Of a stretch of 64,000 nucleotides of DNA, positions 2,229-55,832 are shown in pieces; the stretch's first letter is position 1; each line of letters opens with the position of its first letter. Position numbers and translations under genes: made by a program. The notes beneath the pieces were generated by a model. It was not told the DNA's origin and ran no database searches. It saw only the letters and a program-made list of their open reading frames with translations. This DNA is from Yuukianura sp. NJ FZ-2021. Lineage: Eukaryota. The DNA lies in assembly GCA_046563655.1 (NCBI GenBank), contig CM102285.1:3348001-3412000 (forward strand), given 5' to 3'.

Positions 2229-3232
2229 AATGAGACTTTTTTTTTGAAATTCTGTTTTGAAAAATTCACAATTTTAATGGAACAATGTGTGCATACAAAC
2301 CATTCTTAAGCCAAATTGAACTCTATTGCATGCAGTAATTTTTTCACACGCCATTTTCTCCTACGCCAGAAGCTATTTTAATGTAGGGTAGTGTGCTACT
2401 CTTCCGAATCAATAATAATTCAAATGTATTCCAATTTGACGCTTCCAATATTTTTCCATAATCAAATATGGTAAACTTGTTTGGTCAGTTCTAGGGTATC
2501 CTAATCGTTAAAAATCATGAAATTACAATGCAAGATGGAACTAAGATATCAGATCTTGTACCTAAAATATTGACAAACGCAGCTTTCCAGAAATTGTCAA
2601 AACACTAATCAATATTTTTCCAATGCAGGTTCAAGCGTTTGGAATATTCCAATTGCATTTCAAGTTAAATAAAGTTGACGAGCGTACAGTTAACTACGGC
2701 TGGTACATTTTGCTAATCTTGAAATTTATTATACCACAGACTGTCTACTTAGTTGTGTACAATATGGTAGTTACTGCCTAATTACCTCGACAAAGGTTTT
2801 TACGTATCGTAAATTACGATTCGCAACCAGATTTCTAGGCATATTAACTTTCGATGAAAGTTAATACTGGGTGCAACATCATTTCGAATGAGATATAGGA
2901 AATACCAGCTTCCTTTCCTTGTACAATTCATTCGTACAATGTCTAACGTTACTTTTATCCATACTTTTCATCGAGCAACTAAATCTTGTTTGGAATAAAT
3001 TTTAACTCTGGGCTATTGACGACAACATTGACATAGACCTTATTAAATAAAACATTTTTGAAAACACAAAAACTGACAATATAATCGCCGCTTCTGATCA
3101 AAAGCCATGTAGTTACTAATGTATTCACCACAAGCAGTATTTTCAAACACCTATTTAACGAGTTGTTCTTTGTAACAGAGTTCACATTTCTACAGTTGGC
3201 TGACAAAACAAAGTTCTAAGGTATTGTTAAAG

Positions 3233-4599
3233 ATGCTTACCAAACGAGGTTCCGTCGCTTTGGAACAAATCATGGAAATTGGCTGCTACCTAAAATTCTT
3301 CCCGTTTAAATGGGATCATAAAAAGCGTCGCTTGAACGCCCATATTTCTTCGTTTCACAAATTCGCTTTCAACTTTCACGGTATTGTTCAATGTGTCATG
3401 CTCATTTTTTCTTTTGTTCAACTTCTGCGCGGACTCAACGACCCTTTGATGCCACCGAGGATTCGCGTTATGAACCTTTTATGGATTTTGGCATACGTTC
3501 ACGGAATTCAAGGCTACTTGGAACTTGCGTTCAAACGGCAAAACATCCTCTTCATGTCTAACGCCGTTTTTGACTATATCGAAGCACAACAAAGTAAGTT
3601 TAAAAAAATGAAGAATTTATATGAATTCATACATTTTACTTACCTTCAAATTTGATTTTCAAAATTAGACAAACCAAATCCCAAGGTGGATCGCTGGCTT
3701 TCGGATTTGGTAATTTTGAGCAACTTTTTGCTGCTGATCAGTCCGGGAATCCACGGCGTGATGTTGATCGGAAACCCATGTGCACCGCATTTTTCGAGTT
3801 CTCTTTTTCTGGATTGTAAATGGGCTGGAGAAGTCGCTGGAACATTGCTGGACCAACTTCCGTTTTTCATTCTGGAAAACTACTTTGTCGCCGTGTTTTT
3901 CTTCTTGTTGGCATTCAATTGGTTCATAGTTTTCTTGGGACTCGGATGGCTACGTCGTGAACTTCAAGATATGAGGTAAGGGTTACCACTGAACAAAGTA
4001 GCACATTCTGATCAAAATTTTAAACGCATCTTATTTTCTACCAAAAATTTAATTAAAGCGCCAGTCTTAGCACGCCGGAGGGAGTTGTGGCTGAATTCGA
4101 ATCCATTCCGCTCAAGTACAGACACATTCAGTTTGTGTCAACGCTTCTAAACGAGTCGTTTCGACTGTACCTAAGTTGGGCTCCGATGATTTTTATGGCA
4201 CATGTTGCATTGCTGCTATTTGCGTCTTTTCGTTACTGGGATGAGGACATTGTCTCGTATGTTATGTTTCCGGCATGCGGAGCACGGTGTATGCTGGATG
4301 CTGTCACACCATTAGCTCTAGCTGGAAACGTGAGCGTCGAGTGCTCCAAGGCGTTTGAACTTTGGAAGAAAAGTACTACCGTATTTTTTGAAAGAGCAAG
4401 GCGTTACCCGCAGTATTTTACGGCTGGCTGGGTGACAATGTTCCAAGCCTCGTGTCAAGAGATCAGTTGTCAAGCTGGTTCGTTGTACAAAATGGAGCGA
4501 GCCATTTTGCCAGTCAACATCAACAATCTGGTTCTCATTACCCTAAACCTATTGATTTCCATTCCACACAAACCGGGTCAAAGCTATCAATATGTCTAG
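3233..4599 (+). CDS. Multi-pass membrane protein, gustatory/7TM chemoreceptor-like (3 exons)
   Basis: Three hydrophobic ORF segments joined by GT-AG introns. The C-terminus ISCQAGSLYKMERAILPVNINNLVLITLNLLI resembles the last loop/TM7 of arthropod GR-like receptors. Confidence 0.6.
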
Positions 4600-5165
4600 A
4601 AGATCTCACCATCTGAAGAAAAAATATAAAAACTGACGTTTCAAAACCAGATGCGAAGTAGTAATCCGACATTAAGAACTAGAAAGAAAACATTTACAAA
4701 CATGTAGAAAACTATCATTATAAAAATTGCTATACATAAATGGTTGTACCTATGTAGAATTGTAACTTCCCTTAGTTGAAGTTAGGTTTAAAGCAGGCTA
4801 AGGTATTTTGGAGATCTAAAAGTACAAACAGCATAACAACGGAATCACCCTAGTAAATCGTGAAGTAGCCGCACAGCATTTCTTAAGTAGCGAAAGCATG
4901 AGTTAACTGAATGTTTTTGTTTTCATATGTGAAAGCGCTCCCCGTCATACACATGCTCATGCATGGTATGTGAGTCTGGAGTATGGTATGGAGTATGGTT
5001 CTCCGTCGCGCTCACACCCATACCAATACCTACACCTCGGATGAACTGCTTCTACTACAACTAGCTTATGCCCGTTTGTCTACTTCTGTACGGCGATTAC
5101 GGTTTGTTTTATGTATGTTTGTTTTTAAAAAAAAATTCAATAAGGTAAAGTTACAAAGCTTCGTC

Positions 5166-5696
5166 AGTTAGTGGTAACTGTTTACCAGAAGAAAATAGGT
5201 CAAGCCCCCCTCCCCACACCCCTAGCCCCTGTCCATTCACCACGGTCCATTGTTAAAAGTTTTACCCCGATGCAATTGATGAGTGGTGGATTGAAGACAG
5301 TACAGTTATTAAAAACAAAAAATAAATTAATAAAGAATAATTTCTTTAAATTCAGAAGTATGTCAACTTAAGAAGTCAAGGATTTAAAAAAAATTTTTTG
5401 CCAACTTGTGGAAACTGAAGGATACATTCAATTTTCTTCAAAAAGTCTTTATTAGTATTCAAGTTGAAACTGTGTCAGAGTCGGAATTGATTACAATAAA
5501 TTTAAAAAAAAATTTAAGCTGAAGTTTCTACAATCCACAATTTTTCTTGTTGCTAATATTTTTCAAATTTTGGAAAATCTTTTCGAGTCTCCAATACTCC
5601 GGAATAGTGTAAGCAAGCAAATTTTGAATAGTTTTGACCAACGCTGTTTTTTGAGTGAACTTTTCCTCTGGAACGTAGTTTGTCATGACTCATGAG
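5166..5696 (+). repeat. Left terminal inverted repeat (~531 bp)
   Basis: Reverse complement of 10004-10535, with about five substitutions and one homopolymer indel seen by eye. Confidence 0.95.
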
Positions 5697-6126
5697 TCTG
5701 CCCATTTAGCGCCAATCAAAAATTGCAAATTTCGGAAATCCCTCTCTATCAATTCACCTTTACATACCAACTAGAAAATTTCCAACAGTCGATTTATTTC
5801 CTCTCGAAAGTAGTTTCTTTTCGCATAATTTTTTCCGGGTACAGTTTCCAAATTTTCCAAAAAAAAAAAGTGGTTCTGACAAAATTTTATTTTCAAAATT
5901 TTTGATTTGAGGACTAACGAAACCAATGTTTTGCCAAAACCAAAAAGTTAGGAAGTGACTAATACTAAAAGTTTATCGTCACTAACGTCATAAAAAGGTG
6001 AATGGAAATTGGTCTGTGGCTAATTTCTACTTTACGGCTGACATAATTTTGAAATAGATTTTCATTTTTTTAACAGTTAAGGTTTTGAAAAATAAAATTG
6101 AACATGGATAACCATTTAATAATTGT

Positions 6127-6630
6127 TTACTTCTTTTTTCCTACGTTTTTCGCAAACTCTCCATAGATGTTTCCTTCTGGCGAGAACACACAGAGCAATT
6201 CAAAAAAAAATTGTTTAGGTTTTTCTTCTTCACGGAAGATTATACATCCCACATACTCGGACTCTTTCCACACGAGTTGCGTGAAATCTAATGCAGATTC
6301 GTAAAATCCCGGTTTTTTGAAGTTGTAATATTTGCTATCAGCTTCCCAGGCGTTCACAGCATGCTGAAGTAATACTTCCTCATACTGCGTTGCATTGTTG
6401 TCTTCGAAAAAAATTTTGCCACCGTCCGAACGGCCGCTAGCGGGAATTTCCAATTGTTCCAAGGCTTCTTGAGCGTAATATTCTACAGCGTCGTTCCAAG
6501 TGAGGGGTTTAGCTCCATACTTCTTTCGAACTTTGTTCATCGCCCTAACCCCAAAGCTCTTGTAATCTGAAAAAACAGGAGTAATGGACGCCAGAACTCC
6601 AAACACCAAAAACCAGGTCAACAGCACCAT
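6127..6630 (-). CDS. Secreted CAP superfamily (SCP/PR-1/GAPR-1/Pry-like) protein, intronless
   Basis: Signal peptide, then N-x-x-R...PLTWN, AVNAW, YNFKKPGF, FTQLVWK...VGC and C-x-x-x-P-x-GN...F-x-x-NV CAP motifs. Confidence 0.9.
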   Translation of the reverse strand: MVLLTWFLVFGVLASITPVFSDYKSFGVRAMNKVRKKYGAKPLTWNDAVEYYAQEALEQLEIPASGRSDGGKIFFEDNNATQYEEVLLQHAVNAWEADSKYYNFKKPGFYESALDFTQLVWKESEYVGCIIFREEEKPKQFFFELLCVFSPEGNIYGEFAKNVGKKK

Positions 6631-7228
6631 TTTCTGATAAAAATAGTGAAAAACAACTTAAATTTCGGTTTTCGAAATAAAAGCGAGAACGACTGCAAGT
6701 TTTAAAAACCGGATGGAGGAACAGAGTCGTATCCGAGGTTGTTTAAATCTAACCCTTGCTTGTTTTTTACAAGGTTATGCCATAACTACTGTCTAAAGCA
6801 AATTGTTTTGAATTTTTTTCTGCGATTTGTTGGCCTTGCACCATGTAAAGTAAATGTGATTGGTCCAAAACTTGTTTCTTCAAGTTTTTTTTTCATCCGA
6901 GTTATGGCATAACCTGTTAGTTTGTACAAATTTCCGCTATAGCAATCTTGGTCGTATCAAATAGTTTTTTGCAGCAAAAGACTAAAACGACCTTTAGAAA
7001 AACTCATTAGTTTTCAACAAAAAAAGAAGTAATAGTTCGGTTTTTGGATAGAAAATAGAATGAAATGTAAGACAAAAAAAATTAGGATTCTTACACTTTT
7101 TGGTCTAACTTTCAAAAAAAAATTTTTTGGTAGTTTGAATTTTGAGATGGAAAAACTCGCGAATTTATAATAAAGGCCTCGGGGGTTTCGAAATCAAAAA
7201 ATCAGAACCAACCACAGTTTAAAAGCAA

Positions 7229-7375
7229 AAGTATGTCAACTTTAGAAGTCAAAAATTCAAAAAGTATTTTTGGGCCAACACATTTGGGAACTGAAGGAGA
7301 AATTCAATTTTTTTTGAAAAGTTTTTATTAATATTCGGGTGAAAACTGTGTCAGAGTTGGAATTGATTACAATAA
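7229..7375 (+). repeat. Degenerate internal copy of part of the TIR
   Basis: Aligns by eye in direct orientation to 5356-5499 (aagtatgtcaact...tgtgtcagag..ggaattgattacaataa) with many mismatches. Confidence 0.8.
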
Positions 7376-7699
7376 TTTTTTCTGCAGAATAAACTTTTAG
7401 CTTTCGGAAACCACTGCACCGATTATGAATCCCTTGTCACAGTTCGATGTCGAAAACGGAGAAATGTTAGAAATCATGACTAATTTCTATTCCTTGTTCA
7501 AAATTTTCAAAGTTAGATTGGGTCAAAAACAGTTTTTATTTTTACGTTCAAGCAGAGGTCAACCAGCAATATTGTAAAAGTAGCTATACAACTCATCTTA
7601 TCTCCAACATAAAGAGGAGTGTATTTGGTCCCAACAAGCCAAAGAGCATGGCATGGGAAAACTACGGAAGCTTAAAAGGGTCAAATCACTTCCCACTTT

Positions 7700-8230
7700 C
7701 CAGTGCTCGGTACTCGATGCACAGTGCGCGGTTCCCAGTACCCGGTGCGCGGTTCCCAGTACTCGGTATCCGCTTCCCAGTACTCAGTGCGCGGTTCCCA
7801 GTTGTCGCTGCGCGGTTCCCAGTTGTGCTGCGCGGTTCCCTGTTGTGCTGCGCGGTTCGCAGTTGTCGCTGCGCGGTTCCCAGTACTCGGTGCGTGGTTG
7901 CCAGCACTCGGTGCGCGGTTCCCAGTACACGGTGCGCAGTTCCCAGTACTCGGTACCCGGTTCCCAGTACTCAGTGCGCGATTGCCAGTACTCGCTGCAC
8001 GGTTCCCAGTACCCGATGCGCGATTCCCAGTACTCGGTATCCGATTCCCAGTACTCAGTGCGCGATTCCCAGTACTCGGTTCCCGGTTTCCAGTACTCGG
8101 TCCCCAGTACTCGGTTCCCAGTACTCGGTGCTCGGTCCGTGGTACCCGTACTCAGTGCGCGGTTCTCGCTTCCCACTACTCAGTACCTGGCCCTCTCTCG
8201 CTTCCCACTGCTCAGTTCCCAGTGCACGGT
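7700..8230. repeat. GC-rich minisatellite, ~21-bp unit (ttcccagtactcggtgcgcgg)
   Basis: Unit visible in the sequence. Gives 7-aa periodic ORFs in several frames. Confidence 0.95.
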
Positions 8231-8235
8231 CCTGA

Positions 8236-8425
8236 TTTCCCACGATTCATTTCCCGAGATTCGTTTCTCGAGATTCATTTCCCAACATTCATTTCCCGAG
8301 ATTCATGTCTCGAGATTCATTTCTCGAGATTCATTTCCCGACATTCATTTCCCGAGATTCATTTCTCGAGATTAATTTCTCGAGATTCATTACTCGAGAT
8401 TCATTATCCCAAGATTAATTTCTCA
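8236..8425. repeat. Minisatellite, 15-bp unit (tttcccgagattcat)
   Basis: Tandem copies directly follow the 21-bp array. Confidence 0.9.
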
Positions 8426-8572
8426 AGAATACTCAACACTTTACTCACAACCCATGGCGGAAAATTCCAAAAAGTGAAATTAATCTAATGAATGAATTTT
8501 GAAAACAAGGGTTACCAGAATATTACCAAAAGAAATTCAAATTAAACAACTTTAATTTTAAATTGAAATTCA

Positions 8573-9492
8573 AACAAGGTAGGGCGATGCTCAAGGGTTG
8601 AGCATAGGTCTTCCGGAGGGAGTTGACAATTGATACGACATGTAGACCGGCCTACCGCAAAACTGTAGACGAACTGAGAAACCGTTTTCATGGAATTGAA
8701 GCTCTAAAACGTTGCTAAAAATTTTCAGTGCAAATATGAGATCCTATTTTGTGCATGAGTTGCACCAACATTGTCTTGGCAATTTTACCGGTTATTTAAA
8801 CCAAAATCATGTTAAAGCTTTGAGGCCCAAAATACCTGCTCTGAATTGTTCTAAATTGGTGTGCACAAAATGCACAAAATTGAACGCTTAGAAGGAGTCA
8901 AATATCATTCTTGATTGATGTTCTTAATTTGAATGGCTTCGTGGAAAAACAACCAAACAGATTTTTGGTTTAACTTAAGTTGCACAAAATTTGTTTGTAA
9001 ACAAAGTTTCAAACGAATTTGGAAGTGTGAGATAATTCGCATTTCTTTAAAATCAAAACCAAAAATTTCTCGCACAGGCAAATTTGAACTCTGCCAAACT
9101 CTGTTTACATATTACGAATTTAAGCCAAATTTTCTCCCCTCTAATCAGTCTTAATTTAACAACGTAACTAAACATAAAGCCAGAAAGTGACCAGATCAAA
9201 ACCCCGTTGTTTATAAATGCTTTGAGTGCAATCGAAACCAAAACTGTTTTGCGGAGGCACGATACTGCGGGTACGTAAAGTAGCCGCCCACTTCTACGTT
9301 GTTAATGTACGACTTTGAGTGCAATGCAGAGCTACTAAAAACACTCGAGGCATAGATAACCCCCCGACTGCGATGGGGCTTATGTTTCAGTGCAATGGGT
9401 CCTAAAAAACGTTACGGACGGACGGACGGACAGACAAAGTCGTATCAATAGTCTTCTTCAGCACGTCGTAGACGTGCGTCTCCAGAAGACTA
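8573..9492. mobile_element. Helentron-derived non-autonomous element (HINE/DINE-1-like), nested in the long-TIR element
   Basis: AACAAG end plus hairpin atgctcaa-ggg-ttgagcat (8587-8605). Sub-terminal IR gtcttccggag (~8608) / ctccagaagac (~9480). (GACG)n/GACA microsatellite at 9414-9436. Terminal hairpin gcacgtc-gta-gacgtgc (9461-9477). Confidence 0.7.
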
Positions 9493-10003
9493 AAAAGCAC
9501 AAAAAGTTTAGTGAGTCACACGGGTAGTGCCAAATTTAAAGTGTACAATATTCCTCAACTCTTAACAAATATGAAATTTAACATGCCGGCATGTTAAATT
9601 TCAAAACACGGACTCAAATGTTGGCTACGTTGGCTGCTCAATTGAGTCAAAACATGGAATTTAATAACGGCGTTGTTATTAACTCATGTCGCCTCTCACA
9701 TGGGTAAACCACGCTGTAAATTTGTCGGCAGGACATATTCATAGCCTATTTTCATAAGTGCACAAATGGACAAGCACATCCATTGATTGTTTCCGGTTAA
9801 TGCCACGTTTGCCACACGCCGACCTAAATCTAATGCATTTTTGTTGGTTTGAAGCTAAGAAAAGGTTCTTGTAACAGAAAATTAGTCCAATTTTTAGTAA
9901 ATATCCTATTTTTAGTAAATATGTTTGTCCATATTTCGGGCATTTTGCTACATATTTAAATAAATATTTCTGGGGTTATTAGCACATATGTTTGACATCC
10001 CTG

Positions 10004-10535
10004 CTCATGAGTCATGACAAACTACGTTCCAGAGGAAAAGTTCACTCAAAAAACAGCGTTGGTCAAAACTATTCAAAATTTGCTTGCTTACAATATTCCG
10101 GAGTATTGGAGACTCGAAAAGATTTCCCAAAATTTGAAAAATATTAGCAACAAGAAAAATTGTGGATTGTAGAAACTTCAGCTTAAATTTTTTTTTAAAT
10201 TTATTGTAATCAATTCCGACTCTGACACAGTTTCAACTTGAATACTAATAAAGACTTTTTGAAGAAAATTGAATGTATCCTTCAGTTTCCACAAGTTGGC
10301 AAAAAATTTTTTTTTAAATCCTTGACTTCTTAAGTTGACATACTTCTGAATTTAAAGAAATTATTCTTTATTAATTTATTTTTTGTTTTTAATAACTGTA
10401 CTGTCTTCAATCCACCACTCATCAATTGCCTCGGGGTAAAACTTTTAACAATGGACCGGGGTGAATGGACAGGGGCAAGGGGTGTGGGGAGGGGGGCTTG
10501 ACCTATTTTCTTCTGGTAAACAGTTACCACTAACT
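10004..10535 (-). repeat. Right terminal inverted repeat (~532 bp)
   Basis: Reverse complement of 5166-5696. The mirror ORFs 5171..5371(+) and 10330..10530(-) differ by one residue. Confidence 0.95.
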
Positions 10536-10761
10536 TTCGTCTTAAATCAAATTAGGTTTTACGTTAAATATAACCATGGTTTACCAGGACAAAATTGCAC
10601 GACAAAAATAGTTTCAAAAATCACAATAAAACTCACCATGTAAAAACACCACGGTTCAACAATAATTAATTACTTCTTTTCAATTTTTTTAATCAGATTT
10701 TGATTCTTATACAAAAACAGTTGGTTTCCACTAATCTTAACTCATCAAAAACAGTTATTAT

Positions 10762-11649
10762 TAAGTATCGTCAGATACTTATAGGGATCGTAATGGCCGT
10801 CCGTCCGTCCGACAGTATACTAGCCACAACATCTCTGGAACCGCTGGACCGATTTTCAATCTTCACAGATGAACTACACATGGTCCAGGGGTGGACAAGT
10901 GGTTTCCGGTTTGACCGGAAGTGACCAACTTCCGGGTCAAAGGTCAAGGTCAAGTACATTTTCGACGGAATTTGGAAAAATGGTCTCTACAAAAGTTGTT
11001 TATCTCAACGAGAGGAGCAACTTTTTTGTCGGCGATGTTGACCTTTGACCTACGGTTCTACAGATATAGACGCTGCAAGTTGCAAAATGGCGTCGCTCAT
11101 ACTACGCGCGTCTATAACTCTGGAACCACTTAAAAGATTTTCAACCTGTCTTCGCAGATGAGCTTCACATGGTAGGGGGGTCACTAATCGGTCTCTGGTT
11201 TGAACGGAAGTGGCCAAATTCCGGGTGAAAGGTCAAGGTCAAGTACATTTTTAAGTATCGTCAGATACTTTCATTCAGAGAAAAATCAGTTTCTGGATTC
11301 ATCTCAAGTGACCTCTATCGGTGTCAAAGGTGAAGGTTATGCCCTATTAATATTAGGGAAACGGACGGACAGACTCGGAAGGGGTTTGTGGAAATCCAGC
11401 TTTGATGACCTTGAGTGACCTCTAACGTGGTCAAGTCTCTAGGTCCTCCTTTTCTCTATAATTTGGAAAAGGATGGAACGATTTGGAAGTAGTTTCCAGG
11501 CATCGCTGTTTGACGACGCGAGGACTACGATTTCTGTTTGACCTCTAACAATGTGAGAGATCTAGGTCAGCAATATCTCGCACGGGAACTCTCTATAATT
11601 GATCTGACGATACTTATTTACATCGTCTTTGCAAGAAGTTTTATTGTTT
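10762..11649. mobile_element. Second HINE/DINE-1-like element (different family, opposite orientation)
   Basis: Terminal hairpin aagtatc-gtca-gatactt, (CCGT)n microsatellite ~10797-10810, sub-TIR atctgacgatactta at 11602-11616, internal duplication near 11230-11270. Confidence 0.65.
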
Positions 11650-12292
11650 CAAAAATTTGAATTTCGGTTGTTTTTAGTTTTGAGACTATTGATGTAGCTC
11701 TTTCTCTGTCTAATGCCATTTTAGGAATGTTGCTATAAAATATCAAAATTGGAGAAAATAAGCTGATACATTTTTGGTGATGGCATACAAAACAATTAAC
11801 TTTTATCTATTTTAAAAGGAATTTTTGAATTAGAGACTAAAATTTTTAATTATGAACCAACTTAACTTAAATTTCACTGAATTTTTTAACATTTTGTCAA
11901 AATGTTGAACTGCGTTGCAGCCTTGGACTGATGAAAGTGTTAAATTGCAGATAATTTTAATTTCAAAGTCAAAACGGCTAATCTTATTTTCTGCAACACC
12001 AGCATTAAAACGAATTGTCTTATCGTATTTGCGCAGAAAATGGTAAAGTGTTTACCATTGTGCCTTCCATCATCAGTTATTGCTTTCACTTCATATTTTT
12101 CGCATTTGACTTTCTCAAGTGTTATTCCAGTGAAAAATAATTGATGGAAGTAGTATCGATGGCCAAATGCTTTTTTATCTTTGATCGATTATCAATCACT
12201 GCGTGCAAAGCACACGCTAATTACATTGACTATAAAAATGCCCACTTAGTTGGCCAATTGCTCGGAATTTCATATAGAAATTTAAACAAACC

Positions 12293-13347
12293 ATGGCTAA
12301 ATTTCTACCTCTCTTATTCGCAGCGGTGTTTGCGGTTGCTGGGGTTAGCGGGCACGGTCGCTTCATGAAACCAGTTAGCCGTAGCTCTGTCTGGAGAGAT
12401 CCAGAATTTGCTGACCAAAATCCCATTCCAAATTATGATGACAATCAATTATACTGCGGAGGTATCCATCAAGTAGATGATCCCGGAACCAACTGCGGTG
12501 TTTGCGGAGATCCGATAGCTCAGGCACAACCCAGAGAAAACGAAAGAGGAGGCAAATATGCCCAGGGAATTATCACTGGAACTTATTCTGCCGGTCAAGT
12601 AAGTAGCCAAGTGCATGTCAAAATTATTTAACTTTTAAAGTATCAAAGTTCGTAAACAAAAAAATGTTTTTTCTACACTAGGTTGTCCAATAACTCGATG
12701 TTTTTTATTTTGTTAAAAAATTTGAACAACCTTTTTCCTATATTAATAATTTTCATGTAAAGCAATTGGAATTGGGGTAAAATGGGGGGGTGGGATTATT
12801 TGAAGCAAAATTTTAGTCATTGGACAACCTGTTGTACGAAATACAATTCGGTTGCCAAGGAACCTTGCCTTGTAAAGTATATACTTTAGTAAATTCTTTT
12901 CTTCCAGACAATCGATGTAGAAGTTGAGCTCACTACGGCCCATTTGGGAAATATGGAATTCAGACTTTGCACAGATCCGCTTGATGAGAGCCAAGACTGT
13001 TTTAACCAGCATGTCCTTCAACTTGAAACCGGTGGAACGAAATTGCCTGTTGACCATGGCACAGGTTGGTACAAAAGTCGAGTCAGGCTGCCCGCTGGGG
13101 TGACTTGCAACCCTTGCGTCATCCAATGGAACTACAGAGGAGGAAACCAATGGGGAGACTGCGGAAATGGTGAATATGACATGGGGTATGTTGCTACAAG
13201 TGGTTTAATTAGCAGTTTTTAATCATCTTCCTATTCTTTACTTATATGATAATATATTATGTTTTACTGTAAACTTTTATTTTGCGTCAATCTAGATGCG
13301 GACCCCAAGAAACCTTCCGTGGATGCAGTGACGTCGTCATCTCTTAA
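12293..13347 (+). CDS. Secreted lytic polysaccharide monooxygenase, AA15-type (3 exons)
   Basis: Signal peptide ending VSG leaves His1 (HGRFMKPVSRSSVWR). Then YDDNQLYCGG, CGVCGD, second His in TTAHLG, CVIQWNY, GNQWGDC and CGPQETFRGCSDV*. Confidence 0.93.
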
Positions 13348-40619: not shown

Positions 40620-43352
40620 TTAGACGCCGTTGTAAGAACTGCCATTCTTCTTCGCCGGTACACCACTTGGTGGCAGCAGCCTCTGCGTTTCTGTACCTTC
40701 CCCTTCCGAATCCGAATCTTTGTCCATTGCCATAAATCCTTGCTGAATTTCGTCTAGTGTTTTGCCCTTTGTTTCTGGCACGAAAAACAAAATGTAGATG
40801 AGACCTATGAAGCAGAATGCGGCAAACAGTAGAAACGTTCCGTCTGTTCCCATTGAATTCGTCATGTTTCCAAAGAACTTGACCAGTAAGAAAGAAATTG
40901 ACCATTTAACACAAGTCAGGAGACAGGACGCCAGACCTGTAAAGACAAGAAACGCATGAGGTCAAAGGTCAGAACGGCACGTGAATGTTTTGAGTCACAA
41001 ACTTCTGACTCTAAGCTAAAGTGCGCGTTAACTTTAAAGTTTGGAATTGCGAACTACGAGATTTGTGAAATTGTACTATTTTGTTGGGTTTTAGATTAGG
41101 ATTAATCTCGAATTTTTACTCGTAGTTCTACATTTAATGTTGAACTTCATGTAAAAATAGAGCTGACCTTTGACCTGCGGTGGAACTAGTTCGCCCAAAA
41201 GGAGGTACACGATTGGTCCAAGTCCGACGGAGTACGCAAATACAAATATCAGGAGACTTGTCAATGGAAGCCAACCAAGTTCCTTGTAAGGTTGAACTTC
41301 ACTGTGCACTTTTAGGTAGAAGTAGAGTGACAGAGCACAGAGGGAAATCACCATGAACAGTTCCGATAGAATCAAAAATATCTTCCGGCCGAACCGATCT
41401 ACTAAAATGGCAGCTCCAATAGAAGCCAACTGCAGACAAGAAGTAGTTTTTAAGAAATTGTTTTGGTTTAAGAACATGCAATGCCGCCAGTATGTTAATC
41501 CCTGTCTTACCACCTGGAAAATACCGACGTAGATGGCAGCAACGTACTCGTCGATATTGGATCCAGCGGCTTGAAAAATATCCACGGTGTAGAACAGTAC
41601 TGGATCAATTCCAGAAATGACTTGGAGAACAAACAGCACCAGGATTACCGTAAATGGTCTCAGAATGGCGGGACCCAAAAAGTCTCTCCAATTTGCGGAT
41701 TCTTCGCGACTTTTTTGACTCGTTCGACGTAGCTGCATTAAAAAAATAGGGGTTAATAAAAAAAAGCCATTTCAAAAACGATAAACAAAAGTTCGAGTGT
41801 TTTAAGCTGCTTGAAGAACGATTTTTCAAAATTGACGAAAAAGCGCAAAATTTGAATTAAATGTTTACTTACGGCTGCCAATTCATTCTCGACTTGCATG
41901 GCCGATGACGCACCGCGTAGGCGCATGAGTGAACGTCTCGCTCCGGCATCATCTCCCTTGTCAACCAAGTATATCGGTGACTCTGGGACGAACATCATCA
42001 TGGCAAAGATGATGGCCGGTACGATTGCACTGAGCAGCGTGTAGGTTCGCCATGGCATGAAGCATCCGAGGACATAACTGTAACATTACCATTAGCGATT
42101 TGCCAGACCAAACATTTGAAATTCAAAATTGTGACATTTTTAAGCTGATTAGTCCGGCGCATATGCCAGTAAGTAGGGGATTAATTGTCGCAATGTTAAT
42201 CACTATGTCTTACTTACATCAAAAGTTGACCTAGAGTAATGGCCAAGTCGAATCCAGCACCGAGTAAACCACGGATTTTGACATCTGATACTTCTGCAAT
42301 GAACAGCGGTGCGATTACGACAAATCCACCTCCGCAGAATCCTGGACAAAAAAAAATATGGGATGGGTTACTGTATGCTGGATTAAAACTTAATTCTGTT
42401 AAGTAAGTTATGAAAATCTAAGTTCTTCCTATGAATTTAAAGTAATTAGAGTAATAATGAGTGTAATTACTATGAATTTAAAGTAATTATAGTAGTTTGA
42501 GCGTAATTATTTGTAATTACTTGTAATTACTTGAAATTACTTGAGAGTGGAGACAATTATTTGGAACTTACCGGTAGTAAAACGGCCGGCGTTAATCATA
42601 TTCACTGTCGTAGCAAAATATNNNNNNNNNNNNNNNNNNNNNNNNNNNNNNNNNNNNNNNNNNNNNNNNNNNNNNNNNNNNNNNNNNNNNNNNNNNNNNN
42701 NNNNNNNNNNNNNNNNNNNNNATATGAGAAGCCATCCAACAAAAAACGGAACTGTAAATAGAAGCATGGAATTCCGCCGTCCAATTTTTTCTAATAAAAT
42801 TCCAGCGATTGGAGTAGAAATGACGGCAGCAAGCTAAACGTATTGCAAGAGTTAGTAAATTTTAGTTTCAAGATTCTGCGCATGCTCAGGTACGTTTCAT
42901 TACCGTAACAATAGATCCGATCCATGATTCTTCAGAATCTGTTATCGTAAAATTTGGATCTTTTCGGAGATCGGGTAGTGCTGCAAGTATTTACACAAAA
43001 AATTCAGAATTGAACTTAAAAAGCGACATAATCGTGTACGGTGCGCATGCGCCTTACCAACAGCAGACCAGCATAGAACGATTCCTAGGGCCAACGCTCC
43101 CATATTTGCTGAAAAATTTAAACATTGGCGTGTTTTTACCGCAATACGAAATAGCCGGTTTTTTTTTAAAAGTTTTTTATGCTTACCGGCTATACCGGAG
43201 AAATACTGCACAGATTTGCTAGCACTGAAAAGTAACTCTTCACTATGTCCAGGTTCATTTAAACTTTCAACTCGTTTTCTGGCTCTGATGTATACATCGC
43301 TAAACGATTTTTTACGCGTCCGCTGCGGTCGAGACGCTTGCTCGCCAGCCAT
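40620..43352 (-). CDS. Facilitated trehalose transporter Tret1-like MFS sugar transporter
   Basis: PESP, SGIDPVLFY, DRFGRK, GLGP...GE and PETKGKTL motifs. Contains an assembly gap. Confidence 0.92.
42622..42721. other. Assembly gap (100 N) inside a Tret1-like exon
   Basis: Run of N. The flanks read GWLLI / YFATT, so little or no coding sequence appears to be missing. Confidence 0.98.
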
Positions 43353-49759: not shown

Positions 49760-51363
49760 TTAATTGTGTCCAATAAACGTAGGGATGGACTGTGGGTTAC
49801 GGAAGTAATTATCCGGGTCATACTTCTGTTTGACATGTACAAGTTTATGAAGGTTACTACCGTAATACCGCTTCAAATAATCCGTCAGACTTCCATCAGC
49901 ATAATTTTGGTACGATTCCTTGTGTTTGAAAACAGTTTTTCCAAGGTCATAAATTTCCTCCACCCAAATGTCGGCAGCAGTTTCCGTTCGATTCTGAGGA
50001 TTAGCTACTTGGTTCAAAACGGCTACAATGTCATACCTTCCCTTTCGATGAACAAAAGCAGTTTCATGAACTTTGACATCGTTTGTGGCGCCTCCTAACG
50101 GGTGAAAATATAAGGTCAGAGTGGGAGGCACTTTTTGTAAAAGTGTTAGCATCCGTGACAGGTCAAGGTCACTGGCAACCTTTTGAACAAAAAGGATTTG
50201 ACCGTCAAATATTCTTTTCCAGACGACATTCGACTGAGATTCGACAGATCTTGAGCTGCCAATACACTTGGCTTCTGAATGTACTCACGAGATACAAAAA
50301 CAATAAAATCTGGATACGAATACCATGCACGGGAATTGAATTCTGGTGGCGGGAATGACTTTAGAATGGCGTCTAACTGGTGAGACCTGCCCTCCAAGAC
50401 TTCAAAAGTTCCCAAAATGGTTCCATTGGACACAACTAACTTTCCAGTAAGTGTTCTGGCAGCGTGGATTGAAAATTGTTGCCAAGCTTTATAAACTTGG
50501 ACGAAACTGTTCAAGTTCCATTTCAAAACGAGGACAAAAATTACAGGTGGGGCTGGGAAGACTTTGAATGTTAAGGAAGTGACGACCCCAAACGACGCAG
50601 CTCCCCCACCGCGCAGCGCCCAGAACAAGTCAGAGTTAACGTCTTTGTTGACAGTAAGTAGTTGACCGTCAGCAGTGACAATGCGCAGGCTCAAAATCAA
50701 GTCGCATGTGAAACCGCGCATGCGTGACAAGTAGCTGCGACCACCACCAGTCGCGAATCCCGTGATTCCTAGCTGTGGACATGACGGAATTTGAAACGTC
50801 ACTCGCCCAATGTTAAATAAAGTCATAGCAATCCGACCGAGCTAGTATAATTAGAAAATTTGTTTTGAAATTTTATGATGACAGACTTTTTTCAAAATTC
50901 AAAAAATATCGGAATTTAAAGTTTAACTTTGACTAACCGTGGCTCCCCCGCCAACCGTTGCCGTTGATTTTGAGCTGTCTAGTGTTACGGCATTCAAATA
51001 CTGGACGTCAATTACCACTGAACGTCTGTTTCCAAAAGAATATTTGGGAAAAGAGTGACCTCCTGCCAGCGTCACCAACCTGACATTGTACTTTCGTCCA
51101 CAATTTACCGTCACAACGACGTCCATTTCCGTCCTCACTAAAATGAAAGCCTTTGGACGGATTTCTTTTGGCTTTTGTTGCCATTGGTAGTTCAGCGTTT
51201 CGTACTGCATAGAATTGCTTCTACGCGGAACAATATTTTCTGGGCGAAAGTCTCTTTCCAGAAGACAGTTTTTGAAATTTGAAAATCTTCCTGCTTGCAG
51301 TCCATCAACCGCTAAGTTCAGCAGTACGTAAGTACAAACGCCAAGTTTTACAAAAGCCTGCAT
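49760..51363 (-). CDS. Secreted BBE/AA7-like FAD-linked oxidoreductase, copy 1; 1-nt frameshift at ~50190 (pseudogene or sequencing error)
   Basis: Signal peptide, AGGHS, SCPQLG, WALRGGG, C-terminal YYGSN...KYDPDNYFRNPQSIP. Adding one T to the T5 run (plus-strand A at 50189-50193) restores KSFFVQKVASDLDLSRML. Confidence 0.85.
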
Positions 51364-51606
51364 TTTTTGCAACAGTAAAAGTATTACTGGTGGGTAAAAA
51401 AGTGCTCCACTTACACAAAAGGCTATAAAAATTAATTCCTGAATTCTATAAAGATTTTATTGTATTTTCACCTGAATCTGTCAATTTTTAACTAGAAGAA
51501 TTTTGAACCTAGTACGTCACAGCCTTTTTTGATTAATAAAAGTTTCAAAATTTCAGCCAAACGCGATAAAAACTTTTACATGAAGAACAAAATTTAATGA
51601 CAAACA

Positions 51607-53195
51607 TTAAATTTTTGTAGGAATTGATTGAGGGTTATTAAAGTAATTGTCGGGGTCAAATTTTTGTTTGACCTGAACCAGTCTCGGCAGATTACTTCCG
51701 TAGTATCTTTTCAAATGGTGTGCAAGGTCTCCATCTGCATAATTTTGGTAAGACTCTTGGTGATTGAAAACTTTTTTTGAAAGTTCAAAAATTTCAGTTA
51801 GCCAAACATCAGCAGCAGTTTCCGATGGATTCCGAGGATTAGCTATGTTTGTGATCCCAGCAATAGCGTATCTTCCTTTTCGATGAACGTAGGCCGTTTC
51901 ATGAACTTTGACATCATTAATAGCACCACCGTACGGATGAAAGAATAAAGTTACTGTTGGAGGCACTTTCAACAGAAGGTGCAGTAGGCGGGAGAGGTCA
52001 TCGTGACCCGCCAGTTTTTGAACATAAAAGGATTTCAAGCCTTCATACTGTTTTATAGCCGAATGACGAGTAACATTCAACAAATCCTGTGGTCCAAATC
52101 CATTTGGCATGTAAATGTATTCTTCAGCCGCGAAAATCAAAAAATCTGGATAAGAATAGGGCGCGCGAGATTTGAATTCTGGTGGCGGGAACGTTTTTTG
52201 AATTAGTTCCAACTCGAATCCAGTTCCAGTCAAGTCTAGAAAAGTGCCCAAAATTGTTCCATTGGCAATATTTAGTTTTCCAGAAATTGTTCTTGGTGCG
52301 TGAAGTGCAAAATTTTGCCAAGCTTCAAAAACTTTTACGAAATTGGACAAGTTCCATTTCAAAATTTCAACAAAAATTATCGGCGGCGCTGGAACGGTTT
52401 TGAAAGTTAAGGAAGTTACGATTCCGAATGAGGAAGCTCCGCCTCCGCGCAAGGCCCAATAGAGGTCAGAGTTCACATCTTTGCTGACTGCACGGAGTTG
52501 TCCATCGGCAGTGACAATGCGCAAGCTCAGAATGAAGTCACTTGTGAGACCGTAAGTTCGGGACAAGTACGTATTGCCACCTCCTGTTGCCAATCCGACA
52601 ATACCTACGCTTTGACAATTTGGAATTTCAAATGTTACTCGTCCTCTATTCCACAAGGTCATCACAATTGGCCCATTCTGGAAATTTCAAAACTCATTTT
52701 TAAAAATTTTATGAAATTCTAACTCCGAAGCTCTTTTGTTTCTAAAAATTGAATTGCATAAAATTTTGAAATTACCAAAGCCCCAGCGCCGATGGTTGCC
52801 GTTTGTCCTAAACTGTTCAGCGTGATGTCATTTAGTAGCTGAAGGTCAATGACCACAGAATGTTCATCTCCAAACGAGTATTTTTCATTGGAGTGACCTC
52901 CACCCAGAGCCACCATTGACACGTTGAAGTGTCGTCCACAAAGGACGGAAGCCACGACGTCCTTTTCCGTCCTTACCAAAATGAAAGCCAAAGGACGAAT
53001 GTTTTTCCGTCTTTGCTGCCATTGGTAGTTTAAATCGTTGTACTGTTTGGAATTGCTTCTGCGCACAATATTTCCCGAACCGACGCCGCTTTCCAGGAGA
53101 CAGTTTTTGAAACTTGAAAAAACTTCGGCACGAAGTCCACCGAACGTCAAAAAAAGTACAAAACTCAAAATGACAAATACTGCAACAGCTTTCAT
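51607..53195 (-). CDS. Secreted BBE/AA7-like FAD-linked oxidoreductase, copy 2 (2 exons)
   Basis: GGGHS, NCQSVG, WALRGGG, YQNY, YYGSNLPRL...FDPDNYF. Confidence 0.93.
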
Positions 53196-53500
53196 TTCGA
53201 CTTTTACAAAAAGAATGAAGTTTAGAAAGTTTTGCACACACAAAAAATTTTACATTACAGTATACGTGAATTTTTGATTCAAGTGACAAGAAAGTTTAAT
53301 GACACTTGAGCTGAATCAATCAATTTCAATATACAGGGCTTCCAATCGTAAGTTTTTTTCTATAATTTGGCTCAAATATTAAATAAAATTTTGGAAAAAA
53401 AAATCTTTTACACTCCTACGAAATTTAAATTCTCAACCAATACAATTAAGTCAAACGTTAGGCTAGTTAGGATATGCCACTAATACCGTAAGGTCAAAGG

Positions 53501-55389
53501 TCAAATTCTAGTGGGAATTGACTGTGGATTGTGAAAGTAGTTGTCTGGATCATACTTTTTCTTGATACGAACTAAACGTTGAAGGTTACTTCCATAGTAT
53601 CTCTCCAAGTAATAATCATTGCTCAACTGTGCATCGACATAATTTTGATACGACTCTTTTTGATCAAAAATTTTGGCACCAAGTTCAAAAAACTTTTGTT
53701 CCCAAAAATAAATATTGCTGGATTCCAATTTGTTTTTAGGAATGTTAGAATACTTGATTGCCGCAAGAGCAAGTCTACCGCTTCGATGTACAAATGCGGT
53801 GTCGTGAATGTCAATGTCGTTAATGGCTCCACCAAAAGCTCCAAATGAAATATGTAAATCATTTGGCATTTGACGTATGAATGTCGCCAGCAACAAAATG
53901 TCTCCGTCACTTGCAATTTTTTGAACAAAAAATGACTTTTCAATTTGATACGTCTGGGGAGCCGAAGTCCGATCGACGGTTAGCAATTCTTGCGGGTCAA
54001 TCGTCGCTCCATTTTTGCGACGCTTGAGGTCATCTCCGGCAATAGTAATCAAGTAGTCAGGAAAATTCAAATAATCCCGCGAAATAGATGTTGCCACAGG
54101 GAAAGAGTTCATAACTTTTTCAAAATTTGAATCCGTTCCTGTAGAATCTACAAAAAGTATGAAGAATCTATTATTGTAAATATTAAGTTTTGCGGTAAGC
54201 GTTCTTGGTCCATCGGTTGTAAAGGTTTGCCAAGATTTGAAAACGAGCGGGAACAAATCAAGAATCCAAGACACCGTGGCAGTAAAAAACTTTGGAGGTG
54301 CTGGAACGAGTTTCATAGTTAATGACGTTATGACTCCAAATGACGCCGCTCCACCGCCACGTAGAGCCCAGTAGAGATCGGAGTTGACGTCTTGGTTGAC
54401 GACTAAGCTTCGTCCGTCAGCAGTGACAATGCGCATGCTCTGAATATAGTCTGTCGTTAATCCGTACTGACGTGACGTAAATCCGTAACCACCTCCTGTA
54501 GCTAATCCAGAAATTCCGACAGTTGGACACGTTCCGACTGGAAAAAACGATCGAGCGCTGTTCCACAAAGTCATCATTACCGGACCGGCCTAAAAAAATG
54601 TAAAGTGTTTTGGTCGTATATTAGATCAACTCCGTATTAATCAAAAACAATTTCGACCAATGAGATTTGTGTTAACTAGAACATTTTATCAACTAGTATT
54701 GGATCAACCACCTAATTGTATCAACAGGTCAACCGAACGTGACCTTGCTCCACCTGTTCGTGCAAATGTAAATTGGATCAAAATTACAATTTACAATTGC
54801 ATCAAATGTTTCCGAGTAATTCTTTTTGATGATGCAATTTGGAATGGATCGTAATCGATTGAAGTTGAACTATTCCAATTGACGATTGAAATAGCCTTGC
54901 TATTACAATTGTGAACTTTCGATTCAAAATTTTTTCGAATACTTTTTTGAATTTTTTTTTGAATACCAGCACTCCAGAACCGATGACCACCGATGAATTG
55001 TCAATGTCCGGAACAATTGATCTCAAATTCCGCAAATCCAGCACCACAGAATCACTGTCTCCGAAGGAATACTTTTCAAAGGAATGTCCGCCAGCTCTTG
55101 CGACGACACGTACGTCCGTCTTTTTGCCGCAGATGACTGACGTCACTACGTCATTTTCACTGGTTACGACGATGTACGCCAAAGGACGAATATTTGGTGG
55201 CTTGAGTTGCCAGTGGAAGTTGAGCTGATGGTATTTCTTAGAATTCGGACTTCTGTGCACAATCATTCCAGAAACAACGCCACGATCCAGGAGACAGCGT
55301 TTAAAAGATCCAAAATCTCCAGCACACGAACTTTGCACCATGGCAAGCAAAACTAGACAAAAAAATTTTAAATTCCGCGCCACTTCCAT
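53501..55389 (-). CDS. Secreted BBE/AA7-like FAD-linked oxidoreductase, copy 3 (2 exons)
   Basis: RAGGHS, GTCPTVG, GGGYG, WALRGGG, BBE C-terminal motif. Confidence 0.93.
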
Positions 55390-55832
55390 TTTGTTTCCAC
55401 TTCGTGAATGGAGTTAACTCAAATATTCCAGGTTGTTTTGAGGGTGGCTGGAGCCAGTTGACCTTTTGTGTAGTTTGAACTTGGAGGCATGACAGAAGAA
55501 TGGAGCTTAACCTCACAATGTAAAAAGCAGTCAATGATTTATTGGAGGAAGGGAGGTTATGTTAAAGTTAACTAAAATTAGTCACGGTTTAACATAGATA
55601 AACAAGGTGAAACCACGATTTCCGATGTGCAAATTAATTCTTACTTGAAAAACATACTAAAAACAAAAAGTAGGACGAAGTTTACACCTCAAAAGTTTCC
55701 TGGCAGACAATGTTTTTTTGCGTAATAAACTCAAAATTGTTGAGGTTTCCGAATAGTTTTAAAAAGAAACCAAAAGTAATATAAAAAGCAAAAGAAAGTT
55801 TTCAAAATTTCAAAAAGAGCGAAAAACATGGA

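What the first reader, a model, noticed from the sequence alone, without database searches (positions are those of the whole stretch)
5160..10541. Mini Polinton/Maverick-type element with no mobility genes, carrying a secreted CAP gene as cargo
Seen: ~531-bp TIRs differing at only about six positions, AG...CT termini beginning AGTTAGT, and an exact 6-bp duplication TTCGTC on both flanks. The only recognisable gene inside is an intact CAP ORF. Known: 6-bp TSDs, TIRs of several hundred bp and AG termini characterise Polintons/Mavericks, which are normally much larger and encode an integrase and pPolB; cargo-carrying Mavericks are reported in nematodes. Inference: a recently inserted non-autonomous gene shuttle, mobilised in trans, that moves a secreted-protein gene.
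Basis: partly seen in the sequence, partly recalled or inferred. Interest (0 to 1): 0.85.

Follow-up and report, generated by a model that had tools for sequence, protein, structure and literature searches.

The report
Gene-less Maverick-like transposon carrying CAP gene
A 5.4-kb insertion in an arthropod genome has the end structure typical of giant Maverick/Polinton transposons but none of their genes, and encloses an intact gene for a small secreted CAP-family protein; whether it ever moved in this stripped-down form could not be tested.

Summary
Two inverted arms of 531 and 532 nt (5166-5696 and 10004-10535) differ by 5 substitutions and 1 indel. They begin AGTTAGT and are flanked by an exact 6-bp repeat, TTCGTC.

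Of 76 reading frames of 35 aa or more that overlap the element, only one passes a Pfam cut-off. It is a 167-aa CAP protein (6630-6127, minus strand) with a signal-peptide-like start and a confidently predicted Pry1/GAPR-1-like fold. No polymerase, integrase, ATPase, protease or capsid gene was found in the element or elsewhere in the window.

A 6-bp duplication, TIRs of several hundred bp and AGT-type ends match the published Maverick/Polinton hallmarks. IS3EU/GingerRoot also makes 6-bp duplications, but its ends are TA..TA.

The best reading is therefore a gene-less derivative of a cargo-bearing Maverick (confidence 0.55). It cannot be filed as a Polinton proper.

The key tests could not be run, because no whole genome is held. 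These are other copies with different duplications, an autonomous partner with the same ends, and an empty site.

Decay in place of a full-length element is as likely as mobilisation in trans. The host is an arthropod. This is a moderately interesting lead, not a demonstrated gene shuttle.

The parts
5160..5165 (.). Left copy of the 6-bp target-site duplication, TTCGTC
   Evidence: Read. Identical to 10536-10541.
5166..5696 (+). Left terminal inverted repeat, 531 nt, starting AGTTAGTGGTAACTG
   Evidence: 98.9% identical to the reverse complement of the right arm.
5531..5689 (-). Short frame of 52 aa from its ATG, inside the inner part of each arm and reading outward. The twin lies at 10011-10169 on the plus strand. 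No family found.
   Evidence: best Pfam hit DUF4812, E = 0.026, below the cut-off. Probably not coding.
6127..6630 (-). Intact single-exon CAP gene: 167 aa, a hydrophobic N-terminus resembling a signal peptide, and ATTAAA 9 nt after the stop
7218..7379 (+). Internal 162-nt segment, 82% identical to arm positions 5345-5503, in the same orientation as the left arm
   Evidence: Origin unexplained.
7669..8444 (.). Minisatellite block with 21-nt and 14-nt units. The long frames across it in several phases are a by-product of the repeats.
   Evidence: no family passes a cut-off.
8468..9987 (.). Interior stretch matched by very many contigs in the read sets, so it is dispersed repeated DNA. It includes a 32-nt perfect palindrome at 9572-9603.
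10004..10535 (-). Right terminal inverted repeat, 532 nt, ending ...CAGTTACCACTAACT
10536..10541 (.). Right copy of the 6-bp target-site duplication, TTCGTC
   Evidence: Read.

Best explanation
This is one insertion of a DNA transposon with Maverick/Polinton-type ends. It has lost, or never had, every gene needed to move.

Shown: the 531/532-nt inverted arms, the AGTTAGT...ACTAACT termini, the exact 6-bp target duplication, the absence of any recognisable polymerase, integrase, ATPase, protease or capsid frame, and an intact CAP gene about 430 nt inside the left arm.

Inferred: the DNA was joined to the chromosome by a retrovirus-like Maverick integrase. That enzyme binds the AGT-type ends and cuts the target with a 6-nt stagger, which leaves TTCGTC on both sides after repair. 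The element descends by internal deletion from a larger, cargo-bearing Maverick and kept the cargo region next to the arm.

Inferred: the CAP gene is expressed from its own signals and makes a small secreted Pry1/GAPR-1-like protein. It lacks most of the usual metal-binding residues.

Open: whether the deletion came before the insertion (a mini-element moved in trans by a full-length partner) or after it (a full-length element that decayed in place). I put these at about even odds, leaning slightly to decay in place, because only one copy of the interior was seen.
For: The TIRs, termini and TSD are exact.

Published Maverick hallmarks agree. 6-bp TSD and TIRs of hundreds of nt (PMC8969392 passages). 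A 17.5-kb lizard Polinton with a 6-bp TSD and a 584-bp TIR (PMC3014272 passages). TIRs of 46-1447 bp and conserved ends (AGT)2//(ACT)2 or (AG)3//(CT)3 (PMC8097293 passages). Here the end is AGT-T-AGT.

The other superfamily I found in print with 6-bp TSDs, IS3EU/GingerRoot, ends TA..TA or TG..CA (PMC10045372 passages).

Repbase classifies non-autonomous DNA transposons by TSD length, termini and TIRs (PMC4455052 passages).

[quoted passage not shown] That matches the place of the CAP gene here.

Polintons that lack polB and carry cargo are reported in butterflies (preprint 10.1101/2025.02.07.637071 passages).

The CAP gene looks intact. The frame is open over 167 codons. Pfam CAP gives 3.4e-16. 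The AlphaFold model has mean pLDDT 84.1. The top structural matches are Pry1 and GAPR-1, and the top PDB sequence match is Pry1 at 1.4e-13. Its GC3 (0.45) and codon use fall within the range of nine host frames in the window.
Against: No Maverick gene or gene fragment was found. 0 of the 75 other frames in the element pass a Pfam cut-off, even with matches listed up to E = 1. None of the 80 window frames scanned is an integrase, family-B polymerase, adenain, packaging ATPase or capsid protein. By the definition in the abstract of PMC5499653 (search listing), all Polintons encode a pDNAP and an integrase, so this is not a Polinton proper.

The assignment rests on three structural features alone. 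The end motif is documented in the passages I read only for vertebrates, and here it is AGTTAGT, not AGTAGT.

No second copy and no partner were seen: none in the window, and the terminal 21-mer has 0 exact matches in the metagenome and viral collections.

The arms differ by 0.9%, so the insertion is not brand new.

The interior contains an 82% copy of part of the arm (7218-7379), which a simple deletion model does not explain.
Confidence: 0.55

Rival explanations
1. Decay in place. A full-length Maverick of 12-25 kb inserted here and made the TTCGTC duplication. Later deletions at this locus removed all core genes and left the two arms, the cargo region next to the arm and later repeat insertions. 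The 5.4-kb form itself never moved. This is a variant of the best explanation, not an alternative family. The 0.3 is my absolute probability and is contained within the 0.55 given to the best explanation.
For: Only one copy of the interior is seen in the window. Polinton remnants of several sizes, including 'TIRs only' forms made in place, are described at a C. elegans locus (preprint 10.1101/2024.01.15.575659 passages). 96% of vertebrate Maverick loci are eroded (PMC8097293 passages). The right half of the interior is dispersed repeated DNA that could have arrived after the deletion (table 2).
Against: No gene fragment is left at all. Eroded vertebrate loci, by contrast, keep recognisable broken genes. 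Both arms and the duplication are untouched, so the deletion or deletions would have had to stop just inside both arms.
Confidence: 0.3
2. A non-autonomous TIR transposon of a different or undescribed superfamily that also makes 6-bp duplications. Its likeness to Maverick ends would be coincidental.
For: Membership rests on ends and TSD alone. No Maverick protein was found in the element or the window. Other superfamilies with 6-bp TSDs exist (IS3EU/GingerRoot, PMC10045372 passages; Dada with 6-7 bp is recalled, not checked). Long TIRs are not unique to Mavericks: Galileo of the P superfamily has them (PMC3573991, abstract in the listing).
Against: IS3EU/GingerRoot ends are TA..TA or TG..CA, Ginger ends are TGTNR (PMC2836005 passages), and neither fits AGTTAGT. 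In the passages I read, 6 bp plus AG(T) ends plus TIRs of hundreds of nt are described together only for Mavericks.
Confidence: 0.3
3. Not a transposon. It is an inverted segmental duplication or an assembly error around a resident CAP gene, and the flanking 6-bp match is chance.
For: The contigs reach only 29-30 letters into the arms, and 31 are needed (table 8). All strong holders come from one sample, which may be the source of the assembly.
Against: An exact 6/6 direct repeat at boundaries set independently by the arm alignment is expected about 1 time in 4096. The arms end at exactly the same base on both sides. Contigs from X1 and X2 run without differences from unique flank into the first 29-30 letters of each arm, and across the interior at 5667-7691 (table 8). 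That is what a 31-word assembly gives at a true repeat boundary.
Confidence: 0.05

Closest known systems
Maverick/Polinton self-synthesising transposons (polintoviruses, adintoviruses)
   Same: A 6-bp target duplication. Terminal inverted repeats of several hundred nt: 531 here, against 46-1447 in vertebrates, 584 in Anolis and 744 in C. elegans. AG/AGT...ACT/CT termini. An accessory gene just inside one arm, as in nematode Mavericks.
   Different: The length is 5.4 kb instead of 12-25 kb. There is no pPolB, integrase, ATPase, protease or capsid gene or fragment. The end motif is AGTTAGT rather than AGTAGT or AGAGAG. The interior is half repeated DNA.
Cargo-carrying nematode Mavericks (wosp/krma cargo; Widen et al., preprint 10.1101/2022.07.12.499685, passages read)
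   Same: A non-core protein-coding gene sits between the left arm and where the integrase would be. The cargo could in principle travel with the element.
   Different: Those elements keep the full viral gene set plus a fusogen, and transfer between species is shown by phylogeny. Here there is no gene set, no second copy and no phylogenetic signal: the nearest CAP relatives are at most about 40% identical over most of the protein (up to 43% over part).
polB-less, cargo-bearing polinton-related structural variants in Pieris butterflies (preprint 10.1101/2025.02.07.637071, passages read)
   Same: An arthropod host, loss of a core gene, and foreign DNA inside the element.
   Different: Those still encode the other canonical polinton proteins, occur in several copies and are polymorphic among genomes. 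Their cargo is a LINE, not a host-type secreted-protein gene.
TIR-only Polinton remnants at the C. elegans eri-6/7 locus (preprint 10.1101/2024.01.15.575659, passages read)
   Same: Polinton arms are left in the genome without polymerase or integrase.
   Different: Those are rearranged fragments without an intact arm pair and duplication. Here the pair and the duplication are intact.
IS3EU/GingerRoot DNA transposons
   Same: 6-bp target duplications (PMC10045372 passages).
   Different: Their termini are TA..TA or TG..CA, not AG..CT.
Pry1 / GAPR-1 / PR-1 branch of the CAP superfamily
   Same: Pfam CAP domain, an alpha-beta-alpha fold, small size and few cysteines. The conserved FTQxVW and PxGN motifs are present.
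   Different: The two histidines and one of the two glutamates of the usual CAP tetrad are replaced (the definition of the tetrad is recalled). The loop at residues 61-80 is modelled with low confidence. No relative above about 40% identity over most of the protein was found in the libraries searched.

Membership tests
Maverick/Polinton | 6-bp target-site duplication | tested here: met
   TTCGTC at 5160-5165 and 10536-10541; it cannot be lengthened. Feature as printed in PMC8969392, PMC8097293 and PMC3014272.
Maverick/Polinton | Long terminal inverted repeats (tens to about 1,400 nt) | tested here: met
   531/532 nt, 98.9% identical. Published range 46-1447 nt.
Maverick/Polinton | Conserved AG- or AGT-type 5' end and CT/ACT 3' end | tested here: met
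   5'-AGTTAGT...ACTAACT-3'. Caveat: the printed motifs (AGT)2 and (AG)3 are for vertebrates, and here an extra T separates the two AGT. The general statement '5'-AG' for all Polintons is recalled from Kapitonov and Jurka 2006, which is not held.
Maverick/Polinton | [quoted passage not shown] | tested here: not met
   No such Pfam match in 76 frames of the element or in 80 window frames.
Maverick/Polinton | Encodes a retrovirus-like (rve) integrase | tested here: not met
   No rve match.
Maverick/Polinton | Encodes the capsid, packaging ATPase and adenain-like protease module | tested here: not met
   No match. Pfam may not model all Maverick capsid proteins.
Non-autonomous derivative of a Maverick (Repbase practice) | Same TSD length, and the first 11 terminal bases align (1 mismatch allowed) with an autonomous or classified family | not testable with these tools
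   Rule quoted from PMC4455052. No whole genome and no Repbase or Dfam library are available. The terminal 21-mer has 0 exact matches in metagenome and viral contigs.
Non-autonomous derivative mobilised in trans | Two or more copies of the same short structure at different sites with different duplications | tested here: inconclusive
   There is no second copy in the 64-kb window. The genome-wide test was not possible. Read-set contigs give no copy number.
IS3EU/GingerRoot | 6-bp TSD with TA..TA (sometimes TG..CA) termini | tested here: not met
   The TSD length fits, but the termini are AG..CT.
CAP superfamily (PF00188) | Domain match above the curated cut-off, and the CAP fold | tested here: met
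   60.6 bits against a cut-off of 21.1. Mean pLDDT 84.1. Foldseek top hits Pry1 and GAPR-1, probability 1.00.
CAP superfamily (PF00188) | Conserved His/Glu/Glu/His tetrad in the cleft (definition recalled) | tested here: not met
   In the alignment with 14 relatives, only the glutamate at E97 is kept. The GEN glutamate and both histidines are replaced (DFTQ instead of HFTQ).

The most novel reading that the evidence does not exclude
The 5.4-kb element is a working 'mini-Maverick': a gene-less vehicle that full-length Mavericks of this arthropod replicate, package and integrate in trans. It is now spreading a secreted CAP gene within, and perhaps between, populations or species. Three hints are compatible with this, and none amounts to evidence. 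(1) A 151-nt contig from a differently labelled organism in another study matches the CAP gene without a difference, while the flank from the same run differs at 60 of about 1400 positions. (2) Several distinct contigs share the outer arm sequence. (3) The interior has very different contig depth in two runs of one sample (all).
Probability: 0.08. Interest if true: 0.75.

Novelty: new member of a known kind. Interest (0 to 1): 0.35.

Why it matters
Mavericks/Polintons are known vectors of gene transfer in nematodes. Recent preprints report cargo and horizontal movement in insects. It is not established in the papers I could search whether a Maverick stripped of all its own genes can still be moved, taking a host-type gene with it. 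Six phrases for non-autonomous or miniature Polintons/Mavericks found 4 papers. The one whose hit passage I read does not describe such an element; the other three I saw only in the search listing. Two searches linking Polinton or Maverick to CAP proteins found one unrelated paper and none.

If this element has moving sister copies, it would be a compact natural example of trans-mobilised gene cargo in an arthropod. If it is only a relic, it is an ordinary decayed insertion that happens to shelter a divergent CAP gene.

Tried and rejected
Whole-genome search for arm copies: no genome is held for this window. Cluster look-up of CAP relatives was switched off.

Sequencing runs: 5 runs were listed and no RNA holder. 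This says nothing about expression.

Laying contigs of 4 runs on 3300-12400:
- None of the 15 listed joints (50 more are not shown) joins 5165 to 10536, so no empty site was seen. One is not excluded.
- By the tool's 31-letter rule, no contig bridges a flank/arm junction. X1 record 3 reaches 5195 (30 letters into the arm). X1 record 6 and X2 record 15 start at 10507 (29 letters).
- I tried to read copy number from summed depth. In X1 the arm bins are 182-603, the CAP region is 141, the neighbouring flanks are 147-437, and the repeat bins are 10^3 to 10^5. The tool states that these sums are not copy numbers, so I use this only as a hint that the arms are not a high-copy family.
- In X2 the interior contig (5812-7687) has depth 9.8, against 166-216 for flank contigs of the same sample. 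This could be presence/absence variation or a library effect.
- In X4 (another organism label and study), one 151-nt contig at 6174-6324 has 0 differences, while the flank 3300-4700 has 60. One short piece in a coding region is too little to claim transfer.

Exact search for the terminal 21-mer: 0 matches in metagenome contigs and 0 in viral contigs.

Relatives of the CAP protein with flanking DNA: 9 metagenome loci at 27-43% identity, none close; none in viral contigs.

CAP donor taxon: the best relatives are spread over fungi, insects, a mite, cnidarians and bacteria, all at about 40% identity or less over most of the protein (up to 43% over partial alignments). The Atlas's nearest clusters are plant PR-1-like. 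No donor can be named.

Rfam and tRNA scans of the window: nothing.

The short outward-reading frame in each arm: no family. Inverted repeats within 8400-10003 gave no clear nested element.

Papers not held: Kapitonov and Jurka 2006, and Krupovic and Koonin 2015. Statements from them are recalled.

Full report
**1. What is in the sequence**

The repeat finder gives two adjoining inverted pairs, 5166-5399 with 10302-10535 and 5383-5696 with 10004-10317. BLASTN joins them into one 532-column alignment at 98.9% identity. A global alignment shows 531 against 532 nt, with 5 substitutions and one 1-nt indel in an A run.

The left arm starts AGTTAGTGGTAACTG, and the right arm ends with its exact reverse complement. 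Immediately outside lie TTCGTC (5160-5165) and TTCGTC (10536-10541). The next bases out do not match, and the arms cannot be extended by a pair, so the duplication is exactly 6 bp. The boundaries are fixed by the arm alignment, so a 6/6 match is expected about once in 4096.

The terminal 21-mer, with up to 3 mismatches, occurs only at these two places in the window. None of 100 shuffles gave any match. The element, 5166-10535, is 5370 nt long.

**2. What is inside**

I translated all 76 stop-to-stop frames of 35 aa or more that overlap the element and scanned them against Pfam, listing matches up to E = 1. Only one frame passes a curated cut-off: CAP (PF00188, 60 bits against 21.1).

- **The CAP gene.** The frame runs from ATG 6630-6628 to the stop at 6129-6127 on the minus strand, 167 aa. 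My earlier calls gave it from the second codon. It starts with a hydrophobic stretch (MVLLTWFLVFGVLASITPVFS) that looks like a signal peptide. That is by inspection; no predictor was run. ATTAAA follows the stop by 9 nt.
- **Partial arm copy.** A 162-nt segment at 7218-7379 is 82% identical to arm positions 5345-5503.
- **Minisatellite.** The block at 7669-8444 has 21-nt and 14-nt units. Its long frames are repeat by-products.
- **Dispersed repeats.** From about 8468 to 9987 the DNA is matched by very many contigs in the read sets, so it is dispersed repeated DNA (table 2).
- **Mobility genes.** There is no polymerase, integrase, ATPase, protease or capsid frame. None appears elsewhere in the window either. 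I scanned 80 of its 96 frames of 90 aa or more. The 16 left out were 7 inside the element (covered) and 9 that overlap host genes on the opposite strand or in another frame.

**3. The CAP protein**

An AlphaFold model built on a 15-sequence alignment has mean pLDDT 84.1 and shows the alpha-beta-alpha layout. Foldseek's best solved matches are yeast Pry1 and human GAPR-1, followed by plant PR-1. The best PDB sequence match is Pry1, E = 1.4e-13.

The invariant FTQxVW and PxGN motifs are kept. The two histidines and one glutamate of the usual cleft tetrad are replaced (the tetrad is recalled knowledge).

No close relative exists in the libraries searched:
- The best word-seeded hits were two Penicillium proteins at 34% and 27%.
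- HMMER over 1.84 billion representatives gave 2139 hits, with 40% identity or less among the 150 listed.
- A profile search returned fungi, flies, a mite, cnidarians and bacteria at 22-43% identity, the highest values being partial alignments covering about 44% of the query.
- Nine metagenome loci had 27-43% identity.
- Viral contigs had none.

So no donor can be named. GC3 (0.45) and codon use (RSCU r = 0.35 with pooled host frames) lie within the range of nine host frames in the window (GC3 0.36-0.50; r 0.03-0.74). A 167-codon frame open in DNA with 38% G+C, and this far from any relative, has most likely been kept by selection. That is an inference.

**4. Host and site**

The window carries ordinary animal genes: CAF1, NELF-C/D (TH1), eIF6, PIG-S, enkurin and others. 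The CAF1 frame is closest to arthropod proteins. The best named hits are insects at 57-69%, and the best overall hit is an unnamed protein at 77%. The host is therefore an arthropod without a close relative in the protein library.

The insertion lies in unique DNA about 570 nt downstream of a frame (4057-4596) whose nearest Atlas clusters are arthropod hypothetical proteins. There is a weak lead to 7tm_7 chemoreceptors: 16% of the members of a rank-24 cluster.

**5. Which kind of element**

The printed hallmarks of Mavericks/Polintons are as follows:
- 6-bp duplications and TIRs of hundreds of nt (PMC8969392 passages; PMC3014272 passages).
- In vertebrates, TIRs of 46-1447 nt and conserved ends (AGT)2//(ACT)2 or (AG)3//(CT)3 (PMC8097293 passages).

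All three are met here, with AGT-T-AGT at the end. IS3EU/GingerRoot also makes 6-bp duplications but ends TA..TA or TG..CA (PMC10045372 passages). Ginger ends are TGTNR (PMC2836005 passages). Repbase classifies non-autonomous DNA transposons by exactly these structural features (PMC4455052 passages).

On the other side, Polintons by definition encode a protein-primed polymerase and an integrase (abstract of PMC5499653 in the listing). Both were tested here and not found. I therefore do not file the element as a Polinton. I describe it as having Maverick-type ends and being most likely a gene-less derivative.

**6. Did it move as a mini-element?**

No genome is held. The window has no second copy. 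The terminal 21-mer has no exact match in the metagenome or viral collections.

The read-set contigs all come from one sample, plus one run of another organism label.
- They cover the interior. X1 record 5 spans 5667-7691 with 0 differences. X2 record 12 spans 5812-7687 with 1 gap.
- None of the 15 listed joints (of 65) is an empty site.

Depth sums are not copy numbers. They suggest only that the arms are not a high-copy family, and that a few other contigs share the outer arm sequence (five contigs at position 10477 in X1).

The internal deletion that removed the core genes is the same event whether it happened before or after this insertion. The absence of gene fragments therefore does not discriminate between the two histories. 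Remnants made in place, including TIR-only forms, are documented in C. elegans (preprint 10.1101/2024.01.15.575659 passages). polB-less polintons that still multiplied are reported in butterflies (preprint 10.1101/2025.02.07.637071 passages). I put the two histories at about even odds.

**7. Age**

If the arms were identical at insertion, 5 substitutions in 531 nt (0.94%) correspond to roughly one to two million generations. This uses a mutation rate of a few times 10^-9 per site per generation, a value recalled for Drosophila and not measured for this host. Gene conversion between arms would make the element look younger than it is.

**8. Unexplained**

- The 82% partial arm copy inside the element.
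- The twenty-fold lower contig depth of the interior in run X2 compared with its flanks, while X1 of the same sample shows near-equal depth.
- The single X4 contig identical to 151 nt of the CAP gene, beside a flank with 60 differences in about 1400 nt.

**9. Verdict**

The element has Maverick-type ends, no mobility genes, and one intact, divergent, probably secreted CAP gene. It is best seen as a new member of a known kind, namely a deleted Maverick derivative or relic with cargo. It becomes notable only if sister copies or an empty site show that the short form moves.

Noticed in passing
window 49763-57458, minus strand: Tandem array of four genes for FAD-linked, berberine-bridge-enzyme-like oxidases. 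Each has a FAD_binding_4 frame followed by a frame ending in a BBE domain. In the last copy (49763-51456) two frames overlap in different phases, which suggests a frameshift or an extra intron. Such oxidases are unusual in animals (recalled).
   Followed up: no
window 8468-9683 and about 10786-11811: Stretches matched by very many read-set contigs (summed depths of 10^4 to 10^5 against about 150 for unique DNA in X1). One lies inside the element and one in its right flank. Both contain GGAC/GTCC-rich runs (9416-9433; loose ends near 10797-10833).
   Followed up: partly
window 7669-8444: Minisatellite with 21-nt units (consensus GTGCGCGGTTCCCAGTACTCG, about 18 copies), followed by 14-nt units (ATTTCCCGAGATTC, about 13 copies). 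It is open in several frames on both strands. Read-set contigs show joints that skip or repeat units, so the array length varies.
   Followed up: partly
window 7218-7379: A 162-nt segment, 82% identical to the middle of the arm (5345-5503) and in the left-arm orientation, sits between the CAP gene and the minisatellite.
   Followed up: partly
window 9572-9603: Perfect 32-nt palindrome (16 + 16 nt with no spacer) inside the repeated part of the element.
   Followed up: no
window 3176-4596, plus strand: Three consecutive frames without a Pfam family. For the last one the nearest Atlas clusters are arthropod hypothetical proteins, with a weak lead to 7tm_7 gustatory receptors. The element lies about 570 nt downstream.
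   Followed up: partly
window 12893-13219, plus strand: Frame with an LPMO_10 (lytic polysaccharide mono-oxygenase) domain, E = 8.3e-08, about 2.4 kb to the right of the element.
   Followed up: no
window 42622-42721: A run of 100 N, an assembly gap, inside or beside a sugar-transporter gene (40623-42085, minus strand).
   Followed up: no
window 3991, 4329, 4332 and run X2 record 11 at 4815: The read sets of one sample carry two alleles in unequal shares at these flank positions (about 2:1 in X1). An X2 contig leaves the window's sequence after 4815. The sample is therefore heterogeneous or not a simple diploid near the insertion.
   Followed up: no
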